Part shown: in pieces, positions 4,236 through 12,290 of the stretch | How the letters are laid out: each line of letters opens with the position of its first letter | How positions within the stretch are numbered: position 1 is the first letter of the stretch | Assembly (NCBI GenBank): GCA_965223085.1 | Contig: OZ244981.1 | Location: 4,550,559-4,614,558, forward strand | DNA from: Gammaproteobacteria bacterium | Lineage (GTDB): Bacteria; Pseudomonadota; Gammaproteobacteria; Ga0077536 | Reading direction: 5' to 3' | Length of the DNA: 64,000 nucleotides | Translations under genes and position numbers: made by a program | The notes under the pieces: generated by a model | Told to the model about the DNA's origin: nothing | What the model saw: the letters and a program-made list of their open reading frames with translations, nothing else | Databases searched by the model: none

Positions 4236-4421
4236 GAGCGATCTCCTGAGATTCGGCGTTATCGGCCCAACCTTACCACGTCGATGCCCACCGATGGGCC
4301 CGGCTAAACTCGCCATGTCGTGGCGAACGACAGCGACAGCGCCGGCGTCTATTTCCTCTCCGTCGAGGACTTCGAGGCGCGACAGTCGGCGGACGGTCCT
4401 GCGGATCGCGGAAAGGGAGCG

Positions 4422-4540
4422 ATGCCTCGAGGAGAACTCAAAGAACGCCTCCACCAGCTCCGGGGCGAAATTGATTCGGGAGAAGCGCTAAACCCCGAAC
4501 GGCTCCACGCGCTTCGAGCGGCCCTTGCCGAAGACTTGGA
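4422..4540 (+). pseudogene. 5' fragment of a small helical protein (DUF4404-like), cut at the island junction
   Basis: AGGGAG RBS, ATG 4422, MPRGELKERLHQLRGEIDSGEALNPERLHALRAALAED, then the frame runs into the tandem duplication. The DUF4404 resemblance is from memory. Confidence 0.4.
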
Positions 4541-4611
4541 GCCCGGGGTCGGACCAACTCAGATGCTCGAAGACTTGGCGTGGAGCCCGGGGTCGGACCA
4601 ACTCAGATGCT
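4530..4611 (+). repeat. Imperfect tandem duplication, 2 copies of about 38-43 bp
   Basis: gaagacttgg-agcccggggtcggaccaactcagatgct at 4530-4567, repeated at 4569-4611 with an extra cgtgg. Confidence 0.9.
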
Positions 4612-4804
4612 TGATTTGTTTCTCAATCGTTCCGTAAACGCCGTCGAAAAACGTACTTAGAACGCGATTGTTTGCGGAAAACATCAATGTAAGGCACAGA
4701 AATATACGACCCCACAGCGCTGACCAAGGAAGCGAACTGTTCATAATCAGAATTCGCGGACGGTCTTTTACTTTTAGCGCTCTGTAGGTCGCGTTTCCCA
4801 CAAA

Positions 4805-5080
4805 TTAGTGCTGGCGATACAGATAGATAGCTTGGTTCGACCCCGATCCACTATCCTCCCAATCAATCACCGTGCCGCCGGTCTGGTAGGCACCCAGGCA
4901 GTGCCACAGGTTCTTCGCGGGGGTAATCACCAGGCTCGGCGTCTTGTCGTCGTGGAACGGGCAGCGGCCTATCCAGTCCTTGCCGTGTTTCTTGAGTTCG
5001 ACACCGGACGACTCAACCAGACGCGACACCGCAATGTCACTTTTGATGCGTTCGATTTCTTCTGGTGGAATGCGCGCCAC
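4805..5080 (-). pseudogene. Truncated CHC2 zinc-finger/toprim primase-like gene of an integrative element
   Basis: MARIPPEEIERIK...GRCPFHDDKTPSL...WHCLGAYQTGGTVIDW. The last Zn-ligand Cys reads Tyr, and the frame turns unrelated after VIDW and stops at 91 aa, with no toprim domain. Confidence 0.8.
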
Positions 5081-5214
5081 GGACCGACCCCCTTGGGAAT
5101 GCTGTCAATACCCTATTGGGGTTTTATTATGAAACCTAACTGAGGTATCTTTGTCAAACCCCTCCAGAAACCGGAGATAGAATCACGGCTCATGGCAACC
5201 TCATTTCTTGGCCG

Positions 5215-5546
5215 ATGAGCATCGGAGCAAACCTGATCAAACTGCGGCGCGACCGCAATCTGACCCAGCAGCAGTTGGGTTGCATGTCAATCAGATTCGC
5301 CGCTACGAAACCGGTCAGGCGCAACCCTCCATTGAGGGCTTGAAGAAAATCGCGCTGAATCTGCACATCAGTACCGATCAGTTGCTGTTTGATGACAGCG
5401 AGCGCGGGCCGACGGATGATGAGTTGAAGCTGAAATTTGAAGCCGTGCAGCGGCTCGCGCCGAAAGAGCGCAACGCCGTGCGCACCATGATCGACGGCGT
5501 TTTACTGATGGAAGACACTAAACGCTACACCGCGAGAGCAAGCTGA
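5215..5546 (+). pseudogene. XRE-family HTH regulator, frameshifted
   Basis: ATG 5215 gives MSIGANLIKLRRDRNLTQQQL. The continuation GLHVNQIRRYETGQAQPSIEGLKKIA is in another frame, with the switch at about 5277. Confidence 0.75.
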
Positions 5547-5773
5547 TGGACTATCAATCCCGCATCACCATTGAGCCCGGAAAACGTGGCGGCAAACCCT
5601 GCATTCGCGGCATGCGGATCACCGTTTACGATGTACTGGACTGGCTGGCCCAAGGCATGAGCGAAGCCGAAATTACTGAGGATTATCCCGAAATCACCGT
5701 CGAGGATATCCGCGCCTGCCCGGCCTTTGCGGCCAATCGTGAGCATCAGCTAACCGCGATCCACAGCAGCTAA
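5546..5773 (+). CDS. DUF433 family antitoxin (VapB45-like)
   Basis: RITIEPGKRGGKPCIRGMRITVYDVLDWLAQGMSEAEITEDYP, typical of DUF433. Confidence 0.88.
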   Translation: MDYQSRITIEPGKRGGKPCIRGMRITVYDVLDWLAQGMSEAEITEDYPEITVEDIRACPAFAANREHQLTAIHSS

Positions 5774-5783
5774 AAGGCGACCC

Positions 5784-6083
5784 TTGAAGCTGCTGCTGGA
5801 CCAGAATCTATCTCATCGGATACTCACCGCACTGGAACCAGTATTCCCCGGTTCCAGCCAGGTCAGCCGCCTCGATCTCGACACTGCCGACGATTACACC
5901 GTCTGGCAGTACGCAAAGGACAACGGCTTCGCCGTCGTCACCCTGGACTCCGACTTCCACGAATTGGCCACCCTCTACGGCGCACCGCGGAAAATCATCT
6001 GGCTCAAGTGCGACAATCGGCCGCGTTGGTACGTCGAAAACCTGCTGCTCAAGAACCAGGAGCCGATTGAGGCGTTTGCGTAG
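5784..6083 (+). CDS. DUF5615 PIN-like toxin (VapC45-like), probably shortened by an amber stop
   Basis: MKLLLDQNLS...ADDYTVW...VVTLDSDF...GAPRKIIWL. After TAG 6081-6083 the frame continues DDKTAVVEIY to TAA 6114-6116. Confidence 0.82.
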   Translation: MKLLLDQNLSHRILTALEPVFPGSSQVSRLDLDTADDYTVWQYAKDNGFAVVTLDSDFHELATLYGAPRKIIWLKCDNRPRWYVENLLLKNQEPIEAFA

Positions 6084-6313
6084 GATGACAAAACTGCAGT
6101 CGTCGAAATCTATTAATTTAGTCTGACCCCTATTACCGTTACCAATTACATCGCCCCCATTTCCCTTGTGTTCGTTGGCCTTTTTGAAACAAAAATGACC
6201 ACCCTACAGATTGGAATTTTTTCGCAAGTGGCTCCCTGCCGCGAAAAGTAAGCACTCCAGAAATAACCACTAATAACAGCCAAGAACCAAAAAACATCTT
6301 CAGCACCATCCAT

Positions 6314-6754
6314 CTAACGCCTTCGCCTGGCGAGTAATCGGCAACGGGTGAGTCCGGTCGATCATCTTTTTGCGCTCAGCAGGCCCGCCGTGCTGAGCGC
6401 GCTTGCTAAAAAATCGTTCTCCAAGGCAAGTTCACCGACCTTGGCGTGCAGCGCCTTGATGTCCACCGGCGGCTCCTTCGGGCCGTTACCGTCGAACGCA
6501 TCGGCCGCTCGCTCGAGCAGCTGGTTCTTCCATTGCGTGATCTGGTTCGGATGAACATCAAACTGCTGGGCGAGCTCAGCAACCGTCTTGTCACCCTGGA
6601 TCGCTGCCAACGCGACTTTCGATTTGAATACCAGCGTGTGATTCCGGCGGGGTCTTCTCGGCATGATTGCCTCCTGATAGGGAGGCCAATAACATGGCTC
6701 ATATCAGGCCCAGATTCCACTTATACCGCTGTCCGATTTTCCGGGACCACCTCT
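6314..6754 (-). mobile_element. IS3-family element, left-end stub
   Basis: Terminal repeat agaggtggtcccggaaaatcggacag at 6754, intact orfA, slippery GATTTTTTAG at 6406-6415. The -1 frame orfB start (ERKKMIDRTHPLPITRQAKAL) breaks off near 6314. Confidence 0.8.
6362..6664 (-). CDS. IS3-family transposase OrfA (HTH)
   Basis: RRNHTLVFKSKVALAAIQGDKTVAELAQQFDVHPNQITQWK...LHAKVGELALENDFL. Confidence 0.88.
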   Translation of the reverse strand: MPRRPRRNHTLVFKSKVALAAIQGDKTVAELAQQFDVHPNQITQWKNQLLERAADAFDGNGPKEPPVDIKALHAKVGELALENDFLASALSTAGLLSAKR

Positions 6755-6937
6755 GTTTTGTACCTTCCGGTGGGTTTGTTAATGACCGTGATTTTGATTG
6801 TTTCCGCGGTCCGCCTCTGCAAACGGGAACCTAAGAACTCACTTGCGACTTTGCGTATTAAAATTGACGTTGCAGTAGTCGCCACTTTCGCAATATGGAT
6901 GCTGCTAATGAATCAAGGTTACCTTTTGAGCGCATAA
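6755..6937 (+). pseudogene. 3' fragment of a small two-TM membrane protein, decapitated by the IS3
   Basis: Open frame from the IS end: VLYLPVGLLMTVILIVSAV-RLCKREPKN-...IDVAVVATFAIWMLLMNQGYLLSA*. Two hydrophobic stretches, no start of its own. Confidence 0.35.
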
Positions 6938-6949
6938 ATTCTAGGAATT

Positions 6950-7030
6950 CTGGGGACCCATTAACCAATTTTTGACGACCCACCGACCCTCTGTCATCTG
7001 AGCACACAAAATTAAGTATTGTGTCCCCAG
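6950..7030. repeat. 11-bp inverted repeat pair about 60 bp apart
   Basis: ctggggaccca at 6950-6960 and tgtgtccccag at 7020-7030, 10/11 complementary. Confidence 0.6.
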
Positions 7031-7042
7031 GTTTCCCCTCCC

Positions 7043-7070
7043 CATCATTCCGCCGTAAATCGGGATCCAG
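7043..7070 (+). repeat. REP-like palindrome, degenerate copy
   Basis: catcattccg-ccgtaaat-cgggatccag; same layout as the copy at 10267. Confidence 0.5.
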
Positions 7071-7287
7071 TAAAGCATGATCCCTTACCGATCCAGCAGA
7101 AGCCGACACGGCATCTCAATGACGAACGATCGTGGGGAACACCACAGCAAGATCATGTGCCACCGACTAAACTTTTATTGCTGGCTGCGCAAGAGAATTC
7201 TTTTTTTGAATCGGGCAGTTTGTAGGAAACCGACCGTTTCCAGCCGTTTGTCAGCCGAAAACCTGGGCGCACAAAGAGGGAATTTTT

Positions 7288-8829
7288 ATGAATGAACAGT
7301 ATGCGCTTAAACACCCGTTTGGTGAGGAGAGCTGTGAGGCAGAACTTAAAATTCTGAAGTCGAATTACCAAAAATACTATTTCGACGAGACGCCGTTCAA
7401 CAGCGCATCACTAGACGAAGACTGCTACCTGATCGTGGGGCGTCGCGGAACGGGAAAAACTTCTTTAGCGCATCATTTTTCGTTTCAACAACAAATCCCT
7501 AACGCGCGCTGCATCGACATCGATGAGCCGGATGCTTATTCCAATGTGCTGACTAAAATCTCGAGGTTCTCCGCGGCTGATGCGAATATCGCAATCCCGC
7601 GAATAACGAAGATCTGGGAATATGTATTTTGGACGCTCATATTTAGCAAGTTCAAAAATGAGAGCCCGGAAATCAAAGCGGCGTGCATATCCACGGAGTC
7701 GAAGGGGTCGTTTTTTATAAAGAGCGTACTGACCCACATCATTAAACGTTTTCTGCCTGACGACTGCCAATTCTTATCCGAACAATTGGAAGATTTTATT
7801 TCTTCAAAAGCCGTTGAAGTTGCAAAGGAGAAAATGCTCGAGATCGCAGCCGAAACACCGGTGATCTTGGCTATGGATTCGCTGGAGAAATACGCGATCG
7901 ACAATCAAGACGTCATGATGTCGTTGGCAGCGCTGATTCAATGCTCGAGTAATTTTAACGTTGAATATTCTAGTCGCGGCATCCACGTTAAAACATTTGT
8001 ATCTGCGGAAGTCTTTCCGTACTTGACAGAAACAGCAATTGCTAACCCAATCAAGTACGTGCGCGATCCGGTTTTTATGCAGTGGCGCCCGAAGGACTTG
8101 ATGCGTTTGACATGCTGGCGATTCTTCTCTCACCTGAAGTCAAACAATCAACTGCATCCGCACGCAAAACACACGATCGATTGGTCCGACTACAATGATG
8201 TATTGGAAAACGTTTGGATCCCGTATTTCGGTGAGCATATTACGAACGGTACGGGGATCACGGAAAAAACCTTTCCTTATGTGTTGAGGCATACGCAAAT
8301 GCGTCCTCGTCAGATCGTGGTTTTGTGCAATGCCATCGCAAAACGCGCACAGAACGGCAAGTATTTTCCCTACTTCGGTGAAAGACCCGATGAACTGATC
8401 GATGTCGTAAACGCCACCGAGATCAGCCTTGCTAACGGTGTGATCAACGCATACTCCTCGGTCTATCCAAATGTCAACAAAATTCTCGATGCCCTTAGCG
8501 GCACACCGACCATTTTTCGCGGCAGTTGGCTCGATAAGATCGCAAAAAGGACGGCCTCGGAATGGCCGTTTGGCGATTATTCACCGACGCGCTTCCGTCA
8601 AATCGTCGCAGAGCTCGGCATCGTGGGGGTGATAAGAAAGTGGAGCGAAGATGCGCAAATCATTGAAGCGGATTTCGAATATACGATGGCAGACCGCTTA
8701 GCGGTTACTTCAGAAGACGAATGTGTGTTGCATCCTATGTTTTATCAAAAATTTCGCGCGGAAATTGAGCAACCCGCGATCGTCTATCCGTTTCCTAACC
8801 ACCCAGATTTTTCGCCGATTCGGAGTTGA
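7288..8829 (+). CDS. Stand-alone P-loop ATPase, Sll1717/FunZ-like
   Basis: 513 aa. N-terminal HPFG..E, Walker A GRRGTGKT, Walker B ILAMDSLE, W..KDL...CWRF, LRHTQMRPRQIV, LGIVG, C-terminal HPMF. GAGGG RBS. Visibly lower GC than its flanks. Confidence 0.7.
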   Translation: MNEQYALKHPFGEESCEAELKILKSNYQKYYFDETPFNSASLDEDCYLIVGRRGTGKTSLAHHFSFQQQIPNARCIDIDEPDAYSNVLTKISRFSAADANIAIPRITKIWEYVFWTLIFSKFKNESPEIKAACISTESKGSFFIKSVLTHIIKRFLPDDCQFLSEQLEDFISSKAVEVAKEKMLEIAAETPVILAMDSLEKYAIDNQDVMMSLAALIQCSSNFNVEYSSRGIHVKTFVSAEVFPYLTETAIANPIKYVRDPVFMQWRPKDLMRLTCWRFFSHLKSNNQLHPHAKHTIDWSDYNDVLENVWIPYFGEHITNGTGITEKTFPYVLRHTQMRPRQIVVLCNAIAKRAQNGKYFPYFGERPDELIDVVNATEISLANGVINAYSSVYPNVNKILDALSGTPTIFRGSWLDKIAKRTASEWPFGDYSPTRFRQIVAELGIVGVIRKWSEDAQIIEADFEYTMADRLAVTSEDECVLHPMFYQKFRAEIEQPAIVYPFPNHPDFSPIRS

Positions 8830-8930
8830 GCCGTGACGTTTGCGCCTACGGGCGTCGGGTTGCACGAAATCGAAAGTCGCGCGAGGCGCGCGTACTTTAT
8901 ACTGGACCGGCGGCATGACGTTAGTATTTC

Positions 8931-8958
8931 TCGTCACCCCCGCGTAAGCGGGGTCCAG
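8931..8958 (+). repeat. REP-like palindrome
   Basis: tcgtcacccccgcgtaagcggggtccag. Confidence 0.6.
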
Positions 8959-9044
8959 AAAAATCGCCTGGTTATGGGAGGTGCTCTCCAGGATGCCGGA
9001 GCGTCATGAAGGAAACCAAAAAGCGGAGTTTTTCGCCAATATTA

Positions 9045-9120
<76 letters not shown>

Positions 9121-9252
9121 ATAAACGCCTATGCTTGACGCCTGGGATCGTAACGGTAGCGGGCGGCTGGCGCCAGTGTTTTTACCTTACTCGATGCGCG
9201 TCTTTTTGTTTGGCATTGCAAGCGGCGCGTCGGGCCATAATAATCGTGCAGC

Positions 9253-10233
9253 ATGAATGCTCCTCATCGCGCTGCCGTGGCGGCCCCACAAAGTAACATA
9301 AGCCCTTTCCCACCCATTCGTCGCATGCTTTTGCGAACGCTGCAAGTCAATCTCGGCTACCGCTGCAACCAGGCCTGCGATCATTGTCACGTGGGAGCCG
9401 GGCCCAAACGAGCGGAGCAAATGAGCCCGGCCACGCTTGCAACAGTGACTGATTTCATCGCAGCCCATGAGCTGACTACGCTCGATATCACCGGGGGGGC
9501 GCCGGAGCTCCATCCGCACTTTAGACATCTCGTGACCACAGCCCGGGCACGCGGACTAGAAGTTATCGATCGCTGCAATTTGACCATTCTGCTTGAACCG
9601 GGCCAAGAAACTTTGGTTACGTTTTTAGCAGCGAACGGGGTTCATATCATCGCGTCCTTACCGTGTTACAGCAAAATGCGGGTTGATCAACAGCGTGGCA
9701 ACGGTGTCTTCGCGAAAAGCATCGAGGCATTACGGCGTTTGAACGAGCATGGTTATGGCGATGTCGAAAGCGGATTGTCGCTCGATTTGGTTCACAATCC
9801 CATCGGTGCGCAGTTGCCCGCTGCTCAGGCGGATCTACAAGCGGACTACAAGCGCGAGCTCGCGCAGTGTTATGGGGTAAATTTCAATCAGCTCCTGACC
9901 CTGACGAACATGCCGATTAATCGCTTCCGCCACGCGTTGGAACGTGACGGTGAACTTGAAACCTATATGCGCTTACTCATGAGGTCCTACGAAGCAGAGA
10001 ATCTCGCCCGTCTCATGTGTCTTGATACGGTGAGCGTCGATTGGCGTGGGCGGGTCTACGATTGCGATTTTAATCAAATGCTGGGCCTAGGTCTGGGTGG
10101 GACACATCGTGCGATGCGTCTTAAAGATCTTAGCGCGGATATGCTTACCGATCGGGCGATTGGGGTGGGCGATCACTGTTACGGTTGTACTGCCGGGCAA
10201 GGCAGCAGTTGCGGCGGTGCTTTGTCAGGGTAA
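9253..10233 (+). CDS. arsS: Arsenosugar-biosynthesis radical SAM protein (ArsS/DUF3641 family)
   Basis: LQVNLGYRCNQACDHCHV (CxxxCxxC), DITGGAPEL, DRCNLTIL, YDCDFNQML, HCYGCTAGQGSSCGGAL. Confidence 0.88.
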   Translation: MNAPHRAAVAAPQSNISPFPPIRRMLLRTLQVNLGYRCNQACDHCHVGAGPKRAEQMSPATLATVTDFIAAHELTTLDITGGAPELHPHFRHLVTTARARGLEVIDRCNLTILLEPGQETLVTFLAANGVHIIASLPCYSKMRVDQQRGNGVFAKSIEALRRLNEHGYGDVESGLSLDLVHNPIGAQLPAAQADLQADYKRELAQCYGVNFNQLLTLTNMPINRFRHALERDGELETYMRLLMRSYEAENLARLMCLDTVSVDWRGRVYDCDFNQMLGLGLGGTHRAMRLKDLSADMLTDRAIGVGDHCYGCTAGQGSSCGGALSG

Positions 10234-10355: not shown

Positions 10356-11898
10356 TTAAGGCGATAAGTTTTGCTTGGCATTGATCCGGTTGGGCAACAG
10401 CGCTTCAATGTCGTCGACGGTCGCTGCCAGCGGCAGCTTCGTGAATACTTCGCGTAAGTAAGCGTAAGGCTCAAGCCCGTTCGCCTTCGCCGTCTCGATC
10501 AATGAATACAGATTCGCCGACGCGTTGACGCCGGCAACAGAGGTAGAGAAGAGCCACGCCTTGCGGCCCATCACAAAGGGCCGGATGGCGTTCTCGCAGA
10601 GATTGTTGTCAATCTCTAAGCGACCATCGTCCAAGTAACGCGTCAGCTTGTCCCATTGTTCGTGCAGGTAATGCAGCGCCTTGCCGAGGGCGCTTTTCGG
10701 CAGCACCTGGGGTAACGACGCATCAAGCCAAGCGCGCATCTCGGTGATAACCGGCGTCGCGTGTTCCAGCCGGTAGGTGTACCGTTCCTCAGGCGTCATG
10801 CTCCGCGCCCGCTTTTCCACTCGATAGAGTTTCTGGATGAGCGATAAACCACGCCATGCTTTACCCCGACGTTTCGTCTTGCCTTGCGCTTTCACCGCCT
10901 CATCGAATTTACGCCGCGCATGCGCCATACAACCGAGCTGCTTGAGTCCGTTAGTCAAAACCACCGCGTTATAGCCGTCGTAGCCATCGGTCTGCAGATA
11001 ACCCGAGTATCCCGCTAATAAGCGTTGCGGCACCGCACCACTGCGCGACGGATCGTAGTCGTACAAAATGATACGCCCATCGGGCGGTCCGCCACGTTGT
11101 ACCCATAAGTAGGACTTCGACTGCGCACGACGACCCTTCTCCTTATAAAACCTGGACAACCGTCTCATCCATCTGCACGATGTCGTAGTCCAACAGCCGG
11201 TCTCGCATCAGATTAATCAACGGCTGCACCAAGGTCCCGGCGCGGATCATCCAATTCGCCAAGGTCGACCGTGGGAGATCAACGCCAATCCGCTTTAGAA
11301 TCGCCTCTTGCCGATACAACGGCAAGGCATCCACGTACTTCGAGACCGTAACGTGCGCCAGCAAACCGGGGGAGGCCATGCTCTTCGGCACCGGTTGCAC
11401 CGGTAACGGCGCTAATCTGATGCATTGTCCGCAATCACAAGCATATTGCTTGCGAATGTGACGGATCACTTGGATCGTCGCTGGAATGATATCGAGCTGT
11501 TCGGAAACCACCTCGTTGATCTCGTTGAGGACGCGGCCATCGTGATCACACACGCGTTCGTTCTCAGGCAGCTCATGCACAACCTCGATACGCGGCAACC
11601 GCGCCGGCAAGGGTTTACCTCCGCCCTTGCTGCGGCGATGCGGTGAGATCTCAACAGTCTGTTCAGCTCCCTCATCGGCGTCAGGCGTTGACGTTGCCTC
11701 CGCTTCATCAAATAAGCGGATCTGATCGGGTGATAGCTGCTCACTGCGCGAGGCAAAACGCTTCGCCAACGCAAGCGCTAATTGCTCTTGGAGTAGGACA
11801 ACTTGCGAGTGCAACTGCTCGTTGCGAGCAGCGTGATCAACGACTAATGCCTTTAACGCTTCAACATCATCGGGCAACTATTCTAGCACGTTGACCAT
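10356..11898 (-). pseudogene. tnpC: IS66 DDE transposase TnpC with two lesions
   Basis: ATG 11898 MVNVLE*LPDD (TAG 11878-11880). A +1 T at about 11145 turns QVLKEKG into QVL*. Retains QTDGYDGY, CMAHARRKF, EIDNNLCENAIRP. Confidence 0.9.
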
Positions 11899-11933
11899 GC
11901 ATCACAGTATACCCGATGCGTTGATCTCAGTCG

Positions 11934-12290
11934 CTAAAAAACGCTCGAATAACTTAAAGAATGATGCGCTTGCAGGCGCGTAATATCGTAGCCGTCCAAC
12001 AACCAATGCAGTTGCTGCTCGGATAAACTAATCTCCGCACCCGGCCAACGCCGTGGCCATTTAAACTTCTCTTTCTCCAAGCGTTTGTACCATAGTGCGA
12101 AACCACTGCGATCCCAGTACAAAGCCTTCAACTTGTCGCGACTTCGATTACAGAACACAAACACTGCACCTGAGAACGCTGATACCGACATCGATTGTTC
12201 GACTATCAATGAGAGGCCATTGACTGCTTTGCGGAAATCAACGGGCTCCCGATGCAGATAAACCGCCGAAACCTCACGGAACATCTCCAT
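11934..12290 (-). CDS. tnpB: IS66 accessory protein TnpB
   Basis: VYLHREPVDFRKAVNGL...FVFCNRSRDKLKALYWDRSGFALWYKRLE. Confidence 0.92.
   Translation of the reverse strand: MEMFREVSAVYLHREPVDFRKAVNGLSLIVEQSMSVSAFSGAVFVFCNRSRDKLKALYWDRSGFALWYKRLEKEKFKWPRRWPGAEISLSEQQLHWLLDGYDITRLQAHHSLSYSSVF

What the first reader, a model, noticed from the sequence alone, without database searches (positions are those of the whole stretch)
7288..8829. Lone intact low-GC P-loop ATPase in an otherwise decaying tRNA island: candidate defence/conflict component
Seen: 513 uninterrupted codons with complete Walker A/B and an R-P-R sensor-like motif, while nearly every neighbour in the island is broken. No nuclease, TIR or TM domain is visibly fused. 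Known: TA pairs, IS scars and tRNA islands are typical surroundings of anti-phage genes, and STAND/KAP-type NTPases often act as sensors or switches. The Sll1717/FunZ-like family is, to my knowledge, functionally uncharacterised. Inference: best candidate in the window for an undescribed system, either a single-gene defence factor with a cryptic C-terminal effector or the survivor of a two-gene module.
Basis: partly seen in the sequence, partly recalled or inferred. Interest (0 to 1): 0.7.

Follow-up and report, generated by a model that had tools for sequence, protein, structure and literature searches.

The report
Lone Sll1717-family ATPase, likely phage defence
The gene is real and intact and encodes a stand-alone ATP-driven switch protein; a distant cousin in the same curated family was recently shown to protect E. 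coli from phages, so it is a credible but untested single-gene defence factor whose mechanism is unknown.

Summary
The 513-codon ORF at 7288-8829 (+) is real. It has a ribosome-binding site and complete Walker A, Walker B and RPR motifs. Its GC is 47%, against about 56% around it, and it lies 215 nt from the 3' end of tRNA-Ala.

It is a full-length member of NCBIfam NF047389, the Sll1717-family P-loop ATPases (167 bits, cutoff 75). The family is no longer uncharacterised. DS-41, a 502-aa single-gene anti-phage system validated in E. coli (Science 2026), also passes NF047389. The window protein fails the DS-41 equivalog model (21 bits, cutoff 370) and belongs to a separate, very divergent clade.

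That clade spans at least 11 phyla at 40-50% identity. Relatives about 48% identical carry N-terminal TIR or Ser/Thr-kinase domains. More distant members carry CHAT or death-like EAD domains. This marks the ATPase as the constant switch of conflict systems.

No partner gene is conserved across 77 genome loci, so it is not the survivor of a two-gene module. The C-terminal 150 residues fold confidently into a winged-helix-like domain with no enzyme fold, so there is no cryptic effector.

Many homologues sit among housekeeping genes, and defence-island enrichment is weak.

Verdict: a new member of a known kind, probably defensive, with an unknown output step.

The parts
7274..7280 (+). Shine-Dalgarno-like AAGAGGG, 7 nt upstream of the ATG
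   Evidence: Read directly from the sequence.
7288..8829 (+). Intact CDS of 513 aa: P-loop ATPase of the Sll1717 family (NF047389)
   Evidence: ORF listed. NF047389 match with E = 9e-49 and 166.8 bits against a cutoff of 75, covering profile positions 1-452 of 454. AF2 model with pLDDT 87.9 and pTM 0.87.
7438..7461 (+). Walker A / P-loop GRRGTGKT (residues 51-58)
   Evidence: G51, R52, R53, G54, G56 and K57 are invariant in alignment A1. The motif follows strand 48-51 in the model.
7540..7848 (+). All-helical insertion of about 100 aa (residues 85-187) between core strand 2 and the Walker B strand; the least conserved part of the protein
   Evidence: DSSP helices 85-95, 99-121, 127-132, 140-155, 166-171 and 174-187. 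Block conservation is 0.43-0.51 here, against 0.6-0.8 elsewhere. Its reading as an expanded initiator-specific-motif-like insert or specificity surface is inference.
7861..7887 (+). Walker B VILAMDSLE (residues 192-200), with D197 and E200
   Evidence: D197 and E200 are invariant. Strand 192-197 in the model.
8083..8100 (+). WRPKDL (residues 266-271), candidate box VII / arginine finger
   Evidence: W266, P268, D270 and L271 are invariant; R267 and K269 are at least 90% conserved. The functional role is inferred from its position after the fifth core strand.
8287..8313 (+). RHTQMRPRQ (residues 334-342), candidate sensor-2 arginine at the start of the lid helix
   Evidence: R334, H335, Q337, R339, P340, R341 and Q342 are invariant. 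Helix 340-356 begins here. hhalign places it over SPRELIKL of the DS-41 clade.
8470..8826 (+). C-terminal winged-helix-like domain plus beta extension (residues 395-513), containing the invariant HPMF (482-485) and PFP (501-503)
   Evidence: Separate model of residues 362-513 with pLDDT 89.4. Foldseek against PDB gives a best E of 0.31, with only weak winged-helix and NB-ARC WHD-like hits and no enzyme fold.
8878..8892 (+). GC-rich hairpin CGCGCGAGGCGCGCG 49 nt after the stop codon; possible weak terminator
   Evidence: Terminator-like scan. The T-run is poor, and such sites are not more frequent here than in shuffled sequence.
9045..9120 (-). tRNA-Ala(CGC), with its 3' end facing the ATPase gene; right edge of the low-GC island
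   Evidence: ARAGORN; Rfam RF00005, 65 bits.
4615..9044 (.). Low-GC island of about 4.4 kb. It holds a DnaG zinc-ribbon fragment (4805-5080, -), an HTH_3 ORF (5208-5546, +), a DUF433/DUF5615 pair (5546-5773 and 5784-6083, +), an IS3-type orfA fragment (6362-6664, -) and the ATPase gene. There is no integrase.
   Evidence: GC drops from 0.65 to 0.49 at about position 4600. No direct repeat of the tRNA 3' end was found in 4300-9300.

Best explanation
The gene encodes a stand-alone, effector-less AAA+/STAND-like NTPase of the Sll1717 family. It most likely works as a single-gene anti-phage or anti-mobile-element switch. It reached this genome on a tRNA-targeting integrative element that has since decayed.

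Proposed mechanism:
1. Shown by sequence and model. The protein has a P-loop core with Walker A (K57) and Walker B (D197/E200), a variable helical insert of about 100 aa, a helical lid that starts at the invariant RPRQ, and a C-terminal winged-helix-like domain.
2. Inferred. In the resting state it is a closed monomer. An invader cue is read by the variable helical insert and/or the winged-helix domain. That permits ATP-dependent oligomerisation through an AAA+-type interface, with R267 as arginine finger and R341 as sensor 2.
3. Inferred from relatives. In fused homologues the assembled ATPase brings N-terminal TIR, CHAT-protease or kinase domains together, or recruits effectors through EAD adaptors.
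4. Least certain. In the effector-less form found here, and in DS-41, the oligomer itself is the output. It most likely binds and sequesters invader nucleic acid or a replication or packaging complex, in the manner of ORC/Cdc6. It is less likely to kill the cell enzymatically.
For: Family placement:
- Full-length NF047389 match at 166.8 bits against a cutoff of 75.
- DS-41 (WP_033812887.1; P0270 is 99% identical) also passes NF047389, at 97.6 bits. NCBI names its relatives 'P-loop ATPase, Sll1717 family'.
- DS-41 is a single 502-aa gene. Cloned in MG1655, the plaque-assay table in the supplement lists values of about 1.4 to 3.6 (read here as log10 reductions in plating) against several BASEL phages (PMC13092281 and its supplements).

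Fusions on the same module:
- About 48% identical to the window protein over 97-99% of it: TIR (P0044) and Ser/Thr kinase (P0066, P0075, P0103, P0104).
- More distant members: TIR_2 (P0130, 46%), CHAT (P0146, 42%), EAD1 (P0144 and P0139, 40%; P0235, 32%) and EAD5 (P0226, 29%).
- Kaur et al. 2021 (PMC8195603) use this pattern of variable effector domains and EADs displacing one another on a constant module to predict counter-invader conflict systems.

Fold: the only structural neighbours are AAA+/ORC/STAND-type ATPases (FtsH, BrxC, TnsC, RdrA, ORC2, NRC3). The DS-41 supplement reports a remote hit to the Avs1B STAND ATPase.

Mobility and context:
- Gene GC is 47%, about 9 points below its surroundings, and the gene abuts a tRNA 3' end beside TA-like and IS debris.
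- The Paraglaciecola homologue lies 3' of tRNA-Pro. The identical protein also lies beside an element carrying an integrase, Mob_Pre and type III R-M genes.
- Other relatives lie in a ParB/Prok-E2 element, in a Thiodiazotropha island with nSTAND5, E1/E2 and M78 genes, and in a TA-rich stretch.
- The distribution is patchy: at least 188 hits among 185,579 species genomes, across at least 11 phyla.

Selection: every catalytic residue is kept. dN against the closest homologues is 0.20-0.27 with synonymous sites saturated.

The single-gene unit is supported by the absence of any conserved neighbour.
Against: The link to DS-41 rests on one broad curated model. Direct comparisons of the two clades are weak:
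- hhalign probability 16.5%, 18% identity over 301 columns.
- My own HMM of the window clade scores DS-41 relatives at only 19-26 bits, and only over the ATPase core.
- The window protein scores 21 bits on the DS-41 equivalog model, whose cutoff is 370.

No member of the window's clade has been tested.

The clade is unusually conserved for an immune sensor: mean column identity is 56% across phyla.

In cyanobacteria the gene keeps a fixed place between LysRS/TetR and Hpt/PII genes. In Anaerolineales it sits near citrate synthase and malate dehydrogenase.

Only a few of 91 flanking genes look defence-related, and no genomic null was available.

tblastn finds nothing in 72,556 plasmids or 50,697 phage records.

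The output step has no direct evidence.
Confidence: 0.5

Rival explanations
1. It is a cellular housekeeping or regulatory NTPase, such as a nucleotide-dependent switch acting on a conserved host process. Its location in the island would be incidental, and the effector fusions would be lineage-specific co-options.
For: - Conservation is very high over the whole length across phyla.
- Synteny with housekeeping genes is stable in about 12 cyanobacterial loci (LysRS, TetR, Hpt, PII) and in Anaerolineales (citrate synthase, malate dehydrogenase, DERA, DinB).
- Most of the 91 flanking genes are ordinary metabolic or transport genes.
- The clade is absent from the plasmid and phage collections.
Against: - The gene is rare and patchy, found in roughly 0.1% of species genomes. 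That does not fit a core function.
- In the window it is a low-GC insertion next to a tRNA.
- An identical protein occurs in two different contexts, which shows recent transfer.
- TIR, CHAT and EAD fusions are typical of conflict systems.
- Family member DS-41 protects against phages.
Confidence: 0.2
2. It is a maintenance, replication-initiator or target-selection ATPase of the decayed mobile element, in the manner of ORC/Cdc6, TnsC, TniB or MuB, and not an immune gene.
For: - Foldseek neighbours include TnsC, MuB and ORC2.
- There are weak Pfam hits to TniB and to ORC-CDC6-like.
- The island carries a primase zinc-ribbon fragment and IS remnants.
- A relative lies in a ParB-bearing element.
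- phrog_13260, a family of (pro)phage proteins of unknown function, matches residues 11-356 with E = 3.5e-12.
Against: - No transposase, integrase or replication gene is a conserved neighbour in 77 loci.
- Many copies are solitary among chromosomal genes.
- All structural matches are weak, with TM-scores of 0.4 or less and E-values of 1.9e-3 or more.
- TIR, CHAT and kinase fusions make no sense for a replication or transposition factor.
Confidence: 0.1
3. It is the surviving half of a multi-gene system whose effector partner has been deleted from this island, so it is inactive on its own here.
For: - The island is decayed.
- Some lineages do show local partners. In Thermoanaerobaculia an AAA_21/mad3-like ATPase lies upstream and a small membrane protein downstream.
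- Tle1-like and EEP genes lie upstream of the 70% homologue.
- Tandem ATPase fusions exist (P0141, P0145, P0153).
- EAD-bearing members imply effectors supplied in trans.
Against: - None of these partners is shared beyond one lineage.
- The closest relatives P0009 and P0012 are solitary, and P0002 sits in a single-gene cassette bracketed by 73-nt repeats.
- DS-41 works as one gene.
- The window protein has no EAD.
Confidence: 0.08

Closest known systems
DS-41 ('AAA2', WP_033812887.1; NCBIfam NF053860), a single-gene anti-phage system from an E. coli ECOR strain (DeWeirdt, Mahoney and Laub, Science 2026; PMC13092281)
   Same: - Both pass the curated NF047389 Sll1717-family model.
- Both are single proteins of about 500 aa with no recognisable effector domain.
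- They share the order of motifs: an N-terminal PF-x-acidic motif, Walker A G(R/Q)RG-x-GK, a Walker B D-x-L-(E/D) and a lid helix that starts with PR(Q/E)(L/I).
- Both have a C-terminal winged-helix-like region.
- Both are found next to TA modules.
   Different: - Identity is only about 18%, and direct profile comparisons are weak.
- The window protein fails the DS-41 equivalog cutoff, with 21 bits against 370.
- DS-41 is carried on conjugative IncF plasmids in E. coli, whereas the window clade has no plasmid hit.
- TIR, kinase, CHAT and EAD fusions were seen only among relatives of the window protein; none appeared in the table of the best 120 of 259 DS-41 relatives.
- The mechanism of DS-41 is itself unknown.
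STAND NTPases of prokaryotic immunity (Avs/AVAST, bNACHT, nSTAND families) and the EAD-linked conflict systems of Kaur et al. 2021 (PMC8195603)
   Same: - The predicted layout is a P-loop core, a helical domain and a winged helix.
- Relatives carry the same repertoire of N-terminal effectors and adaptors: TIR, caspase-like CHAT, Ser/Thr kinase and EAD1/EAD5.
- There are weak structural hits to plant NRC NB-ARC domains.
- The DS-41 supplement reports a remote Avs1B ATPase hit.
   Different: - It has no C-terminal repeat sensor (TPR, WD40 or LRR) and no effector.
- Pfam AAA_16 and nSTAND3 hits are below their gathering scores.
- No Avs or NACHT model in PADLOC matches.
- It has AAA+-like candidate sensor-2 and arginine-finger motifs, which classical STANDs lack (inference).
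ORC/Cdc6-type and related AAA+ ATPases used in defence or DNA transactions (BrxC, RdrA, TnsC, MuB; Pfam PF24389 ORC-CDC6-like)
   Same: - These are the best, though weak, Foldseek neighbours.
- The N-terminal 60 positions of PF24389 match the pre-Walker-A motif and P-loop of many family members.
- The helical insert sits where initiator-clade ATPases carry their specific motif (inference).
   Different: - TM-scores are 0.4 or less and E-values 1.9e-3 or more.
- No BREX, RADAR or transposon partner genes are present.
- The PF24389 score for the window protein is 13.6 bits against a cutoff of 27.

Membership tests
NCBIfam NF047389, P-loop ATPase, Sll1717 family | Whole-protein score above the curated cutoff, with a full-length match to the model | tested here: met
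   166.8 bits against a cutoff of 75, E = 9e-49. Residues 11-487 match profile positions 1-452 of 454.
NCBIfam NF047389, P-loop ATPase, Sll1717 family | Intact P-loop NTPase motifs (Walker A and Walker B) | tested here: met
   GRRGTGKT at 51-58 and VILAMDSLE at 192-200, invariant in A1.
DS-41 anti-phage protein (NCBIfam NF053860, equivalog) | Score at or above the equivalog cutoff of 370 bits | tested here: not met
   21.4 bits, covering residues 8-83 only. True DS-41 relatives score 371-414 bits.
DS-41 anti-phage protein (NCBIfam NF053860, equivalog) | Single-gene ATPase of about 500 aa with no effector domain and no obligatory partner | tested here: met
   513 aa with no other Pfam domain. 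No conserved neighbour in 77 loci.
DS-41 anti-phage protein (NCBIfam NF053860, equivalog) | Direct profile-to-profile homology over the whole length | tested here: inconclusive
   hhalign of A1 against A2 gives probability 16.5%, E = 0.0015, 301 columns and 18% identity. hmmsearch gives 19-26 bits over the ATPase core only.
DS-41 anti-phage protein (NCBIfam NF053860, equivalog) | Reduces phage plating when expressed in a naive host | not testable with these tools
   This needs a plaque assay. It has been shown only for DS-41 itself (PMC13092281).
STAND NTPases (AAA_16, NB-ARC, NACHT, nSTAND) | Pfam STAND-type model at or above its gathering score | tested here: not met
   AAA_16 scores 23 bits against 32.6 and nSTAND3 scores 15.5 against 27.2.
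STAND NTPases (AAA_16, NB-ARC, NACHT, nSTAND) | Tripartite layout: nucleotide-binding domain, helical domain and winged-helix domain | tested here: inconclusive
   The secondary-structure order in the AF2 model fits. Structural matches to NRC NB-ARC domains are weak, with E = 0.014 for the full protein and E = 0.4 or more for the C-terminal part.
STAND NTPases (AAA_16, NB-ARC, NACHT, nSTAND) | C-terminal repeat sensor and an N-terminal effector in the same protein | tested here: not met
   Neither is present in the window protein. Effectors occur only in relatives.
   No KAP hit at E up to 1. The insert at residues 85-187 is modelled as soluble helices.
PADLOC known or candidate defence proteins | A significant match to a PADLOC model | tested here: inconclusive
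   The best hit is PDC-M28C at E = 2.6e-4 and 18 bits, over the ATPase core only. PDC-M28C is a candidate model in PADLOC, and no paper mentioning PDC-M28 was found.
Transposition or replication AAA+ ATPases (TnsC, TniB, MuB, ORC/Cdc6) | Conserved linkage to a transposase, integrase or replication gene | tested here: not met
   No such gene recurs next to homologues. TniB scores 11.5 bits against a cutoff of 22.4.

The most novel reading that the evidence does not exclude
The window's clade could be a second immune system, mechanistically distinct from DS-41. It would be an ancient, ultra-conserved, effector-less AAA+/STAND-like module acting as both sensor and effector. It would assemble on invader nucleic acid or on a conserved phage replication or packaging factor and block it directly. 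The same module would have been upgraded repeatedly in different phyla with TIR, caspase-like, kinase and death-like domains. On this reading the bare module is the minimal ancestral form of NLR-like immunity.
Probability: 0.3. Interest if true: 0.65.

Novelty: new member of a known kind. Interest (0 to 1): 0.45.

Why it matters
If the window clade does defend, it adds a widespread single-gene system to the defence repertoire. It occurs in at least 11 phyla and forms 865 clusters at 50% identity.

It would also be a clean model for an open question: how can an NTPase switch with no effector domain stop a phage? The natural fusions to TIR, CHAT, kinase and EAD domains on the same scaffold offer built-in comparisons between 'bare' and 'armed' versions.

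The gene also illustrates that defence genes can sit outside defence islands, among housekeeping genes, which was the premise of the method that found DS-41.

If the clade does not defend, its extreme conservation would point to an unrecognised cellular function for a curated but unstudied family.

Tried and rejected
- PDB sequence search: nothing relevant.
- Foldseek of the full model against PDB and BFVD: only generic AAA+ hits with TM-scores of 0.4 or less.
- Foldseek of the C-terminal 152 residues: nothing significant, so the cryptic-effector idea was rejected.
- Literature searches for 'Sll1717' and 'PDC-M28': no papers. 'FunZ' led only to 'function unknown gene Z' of a capsule locus.
- Exact-sequence look-ups of two window proteins, meant to name the host organism: not on record. 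The organism remains unidentified.
- tblastn of the protein against the plasmid and phage collections: no match.
- Megablast of the DS-41 gene against complete E. coli genomes: no match.
- dN/dS against the four closest homologues: synonymous sites are saturated, so no ratio could be computed. dN is 0.20-0.27.
- Search for an att-type direct repeat of the tRNA-Ala 3' end: none found.
- Comparison of flanking DNA between the window and its closest homologues: no shared non-coding element.
- Direct homology tests against DS-41, using a single sequence, profile-profile comparison and my own HMM: all weak.
- Conserved-partner hypothesis: rejected by clustering all ORFs in 77 loci.
- Neighbour scans with Pfam and PADLOC give only a crude picture, because no genomic null was available.
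Full report
**Observation**

The ORF at 7288-8829 on the plus strand is present exactly as described. It has 513 codons and an ATG start. An AAGAGGG ribosome-binding site ends 7 nt upstream. The N-terminus lines up with those of homologues.

Three motifs are all invariant in a 34-sequence alignment spanning many phyla:
- Walker A, GRRGTGKT, residues 51-58.
- Walker B, VILAMDSLE, residues 192-200.

The gene has GC 0.471, while its flanks run at 0.55-0.65. Its stop codon lies 215 nt from the 3' end of tRNA-Ala(CGC) at 9045-9120 on the minus strand.

**The island**

The island is about 4.4 kb. GC falls from 0.65 to 0.49 at about position 4600. It contains:
- a 91-aa DnaG zinc-ribbon fragment;
- an HTH_3 ORF;
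- an intact DUF433/DUF5615 pair, which I read as toxin-antitoxin-like (Pfam gives only the DUF assignments);
- a lone IS3-type orfA.

A split IS66 transposase lies beyond the tRNA. There is no integrase, and no att-type repeat of the tRNA end was found. The island is therefore decayed, but 'nearly every neighbour is broken' overstates it.

**What the protein is**

Pfam gives only sub-threshold P-loop hits: AAA_16 at 23 bits against 32.6, then nSTAND3, ORC-CDC6-like and TniB. PADLOC gives only a weak hit to the candidate model PDC-M28C. The PDB sequence search finds nothing.

NCBIfam places it firmly in NF047389, 'P-loop ATPase, Sll1717 family', with 166.8 bits against a cutoff of 75. The match covers essentially the whole model.

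An AlphaFold2 model built on the family alignment is confident, with pLDDT 87.9 and pTM 0.87. It shows, in order:
- a short N-terminal helical segment;
- an ASCE-type core, with strands at 48-51, 74-78, 192-197 and 232-239;
- an all-helical insertion of about 100 residues (85-187) between the second core strand and the Walker B strand;
- a helical lid that starts at the RPRQ motif;
- a C-terminal helix-strand arrangement typical of winged helices.

Foldseek against PDB finds only weak neighbours, with E of 1.9e-3 or more and TM-scores of 0.4 or less. All are AAA+/ORC/STAND-type ATPases: FtsH, BrxC, TnsC, RdrA, archaeal ORC2, p97 and the plant NLR NRC3. The viral structure library gives only generic giant-virus AAA+ proteins.

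The model is confident (pLDDT 89.4). Its best PDB match has E = 0.31. The weak hits are winged-helix proteins and NB-ARC winged-helix domains, not enzymes. There is no hidden nuclease or similar effector.

**The family at large**

An exhaustive HMMER scan of 1.84 billion representatives finds 865 clusters at E of 1e-3 or less, and 153 at E of 1e-30 or less. A word-indexed search finds 623 proteins. The closest is 72% identical and comes from a metagenome. The closest named one is from Paraglaciecola chathamensis at 66%.

Most homologues are 40-50% identical over the whole length. They come from Cyanobacteria, Chloroflexota, Acidobacteriota, Bacteroidota, Planctomycetota, Myxococcota, Verrucomicrobiota, Gemmatimonadota, Calditrichota, Chlorobiota and Pseudomonadota. 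At least 188 of 185,579 species genomes carry a copy, so the gene is rare and patchy yet strongly conserved. Mean column identity is 56%.

Against its four closest homologues, synonymous sites are saturated and dN is 0.20-0.27. The least conserved stretches are the helical insertion (blocks 81-100 and 121-180) and two linkers.

**Fusions**

Most members are bare, about 510 aa. A minority carry extra domains on the same module.

Relatives about 48% identical to the window protein over 97-99% of its length:
- TIR: P0044.
- Ser/Thr kinase: P0066, P0075, P0103, P0104.
- A Cys4 zinc-ribbon-like leader, judged by eye, in the 575-aa forms.

More distant members (identities; domains):
- TIR_2: P0130, 46%.
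- CHAT caspase-like protease: P0146, 42%.
- Effector-associated domain EAD1: N-terminal in P0144 (40%) and P0235 (32%), C-terminal in P0139 (40%).
- EAD5: P0226, 29%.
- A weak MarR-like hit: P0212.
- A second P-loop ATPase in tandem: P0141, P0145, P0153, P0190, P0256.

Kaur et al. 2021 (PMC8195603) use this pattern to predict counter-invader conflict systems: a constant module whose terminus is occupied by interchangeable effectors and death-like adaptors. Where an NTPase core is present, they describe it as the regulatory switch. This is the strongest internal evidence that the Sll1717 module is an immune-type switch.

**Neighbourhoods**

I called ORFs in 77 genome loci with 10-kb flanks and clustered them. 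No neighbour is conserved across lineages.

What is conserved is clade-level synteny, and it is housekeeping:
- In about 12 cyanobacterial loci the order is LysRS, TetR, the ATPase, Hpt, PII.
- In Anaerolineales the neighbours are citrate synthase, malate dehydrogenase, deoxyribose-phosphate aldolase and DinB.

The 91 non-redundant immediately flanking genes hit 154 Pfam families, none in more than three loci. Only a handful look defence-related. They include three AAA_21/mad3-like ATPases, one PDC-S69 hit and one SoFic hit. There was no null to test enrichment against.

Close relatives tell a more mobile story:
- The Paraglaciecola copy lies 432 nt 3' of tRNA-Pro(GGG), between ordinary genes.
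- The identical protein, with 477 nt of identical upstream DNA, also lies beside an element carrying an integrase, Mob_Pre and type III R-M genes.
- The 72% homologue sits in a 2.25-kb single-gene cassette bracketed by 73-nt direct repeats, inside a ParB/Prok-E2 element.
- A Thiodiazotropha copy lies in an island with nSTAND5, E1/E2/ubiquitin-like genes and an M78 peptidase.
- An EAD1-fused copy lies among ParE, PIN and HicB-type TA genes.

The window clade has no tblastn match in 72,556 plasmids or 50,697 phage records. phrog_13260, a (pro)phage family of unknown function, matches residues 11-356 with E = 3.5e-12.

The unit is therefore a single gene that moves on its own, often lands at tRNA genes, and can then be kept for a long time.

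**Link to a validated system**

A weak N-terminal hit to NCBIfam NF053860, 'DS41_1_antiphage', led to DefensePredictor (DeWeirdt, Mahoney and Laub, Science 2026; PMC13092281).

- DS-41, nicknamed AAA2, is a single 502-aa hypothetical protein (WP_033812887.1) from an ECOR strain.
- The main text counts it among the validated systems with homologues reaching the archaeal Halobacteria.
- The plaque-assay table in the supplement lists 3.6 for Bas63, 2.7 for Bas3, 2.3 for Bas19 and 1.4 for Bas25. I read these as log10 reductions in plating in MG1655.
- The same supplement lists a remote HHblits hit of DS-41 to the Avs1B STAND protein.

Searching with the DS-41 sequence returns relatives that NCBI itself names 'P-loop ATPase, Sll1717 family'. 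DS-41 relatives pass both NF053860 (371-414 bits) and NF047389 (83-104 bits against a cutoff of 75). The family is therefore no longer uncharacterised at the phenotype level, although the paper does not address DS-41's mechanism.

In E. coli, DS-41 lies on IncF conjugative plasmids next to a RES-domain protein and the CcdAB and RelE/ParE modules.

**How far the link carries**

The window protein is not a DS-41 equivalog: it scores 21 bits against a cutoff of 370. The two clades are very distant:
- hhalign between clade alignments gives probability 16.5% and 18% identity over 301 columns. The alignment does put the N-terminal PF-acidic motif, Walker A, Walker B and the PR(Q/E)L lid motif in register.
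- My own HMM of 184 window-clade proteins scores DS-41 relatives at only 19-26 bits, on the ATPase core.

Common family membership therefore rests on NCBI's broader curated model. Transferring the function is reasonable, but it is not proven.

A further relative with the same motifs (WP_035369047.1, Ectothiorhodospira, 694 aa) is listed as a strongly predicted but untested defence gene in the same paper's supplement.

**Most likely mechanism**

Shown:
- An intact P-loop switch with all family-invariant residues.
- A variable helical insert.
- A lid that starts at an invariant arginine motif.
- A winged-helix-like C-terminal domain.
- No effector domain and no obligatory partner.

Inferred:
- R341 acts as sensor 2 and R267, in WRPKDL, acts as the arginine finger. 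ATP binding would then drive oligomerisation, as in AAA+, ORC and STAND proteins.
- The variable insert and/or the winged helix reads the invader cue.
- In armed relatives, assembly activates TIR, CHAT or kinase domains, or recruits effectors through EADs.

Least certain:
- In the bare form, as in DS-41, the assembled ATPase is itself the output. It most likely binds and sequesters invader nucleic acid or a replication or packaging complex.

I put 0.5 on the defence-switch reading as a whole, and much less on the specific output step.

**Rivals**

- A housekeeping or regulatory NTPase (0.2). High conservation and housekeeping synteny favour it. Rarity, horizontal transfer, the fusions and DS-41 count against it.
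- A mobile-element replication or targeting ATPase (0.1). Weak TnsC, MuB and ORC resemblance favours it. There is no linked transposase or replication gene.
- The survivor of a multi-gene system (0.08). Local partners exist in some lineages, but none is shared, and the closest relatives and DS-41 are solitary.

**Verdict**

It is a credible defence candidate, but it does not belong to an undescribed family, it has no cryptic C-terminal effector, and it is not a remnant of a two-gene module.

It is a new member, in a divergent and untested clade, of a known kind. Interest is moderate. The attraction lies in the unknown mechanism of effector-less NTPase defence and in the natural series of bare and armed versions of one scaffold.

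Noticed in passing
window 4537-4570 and 4581-4614: A 34-nt tandem direct repeat (97% identical, 44-nt spacing). It sits at the GC break that marks the left edge of the low-GC island, just downstream of the hydantoinase/oxoprolinase genes.
   Followed up: no
window 6611-6625 and 8867-8881: A perfect 15-nt inverted repeat (CGCGACTTTCGATTT / AAATCGAAAGTCGCG) brackets the ATPase gene. The left arm lies inside the IS3-type orfA fragment and the right arm lies 38 nt after the stop codon. About 0.01 such pairs would be expected by chance in 5 kb (my estimate). No other copy exists in the window.
   Followed up: partly
window 10356-12290: An IS66-family element with its transposase split into two overlapping ORFs (10356-11168 and 11143-11877), plus a 118-aa ORF at 11934-12290 that the first-stage reading took for the IS66 TnpB (not scanned here). 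It lies just beyond a radical-SAM/DUF3641 gene (9253-10233), on the other side of the tRNA.
   Followed up: partly
L085 6881-6953 and 9128-9200: The 72%-identical homologue P0002 sits in a 2,247-bp single-gene cassette bracketed by 73-nt direct repeats (92% identical). Each repeat begins at a stop codon and ends in a hairpin (DNA fold z = -2.2). This looks like a site-specific insertion footprint or a cassette boundary.
   Followed up: partly
L081 9492-9804 and L084 9524-10000: In Paraglaciecola the homologue lies 432 nt 3' of tRNA-Pro(GGG), with a 57-nt repeat that overlaps the tRNA 3' end. A metagenomic contig has the same 477 nt upstream and the identical protein, but an element carrying an integrase, AAA_25, Mob_Pre and type III R-M genes where the 5' part of the tRNA would be. 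This is a second independent case of the gene sitting at a tRNA integration hotspot.
   Followed up: partly
L072, L074, L076, L077, L079, L073, L065 (Thermoanaerobaculia and other Acidobacteriota): A lineage-specific arrangement. A small protein of 138-164 aa with about four hydrophobic segments (cluster C15, judged by eye) lies directly downstream, and in L077 it overlaps the ATPase stop codon. In L074 an 840-aa protein with an AAA_21/mad3-like ATPase lies directly upstream. This may be a three-gene variant of the system.
   Followed up: partly
L088 5777-9554: The 70% homologue P0007 lies 50 nt downstream of a Tle1-like (DUF2235) hydrolase gene and an Exo_endo_phos gene on the same strand. 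This may be a local operon with enzymatic partners. The arrangement was not seen in other loci.
   Followed up: no
proteins P0141, P0145, P0153, P0190, P0256; loci L013 and L071: In these proteins an Sll1717-type module is joined in tandem to a second P-loop ATPase that matches the N-terminus of PF24389 (ORC-CDC6-like). Some loci carry two family members a few genes apart.
   Followed up: partly
L093 (E. coli plasmid CP058102.1, 79180-90645): The validated DS-41 gene lies on IncF conjugative plasmids between a RES-family NAD+ phosphorylase and an EAST1 (astA) locus, with CcdAB and RelE/ParE modules nearby. Megablast found no match to it in the 5,426 complete E. coli assemblies (chromosomes and their plasmids).
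   Followed up: partly
window 7288-8826 against PHROGs: phrog_13260, a (pro)phage protein family of unknown function with a 497-position profile, matches residues 11-356 with E = 3.5e-12. tblastn against 50,697 phage records still found nothing at 1e-5.
   Followed up: no
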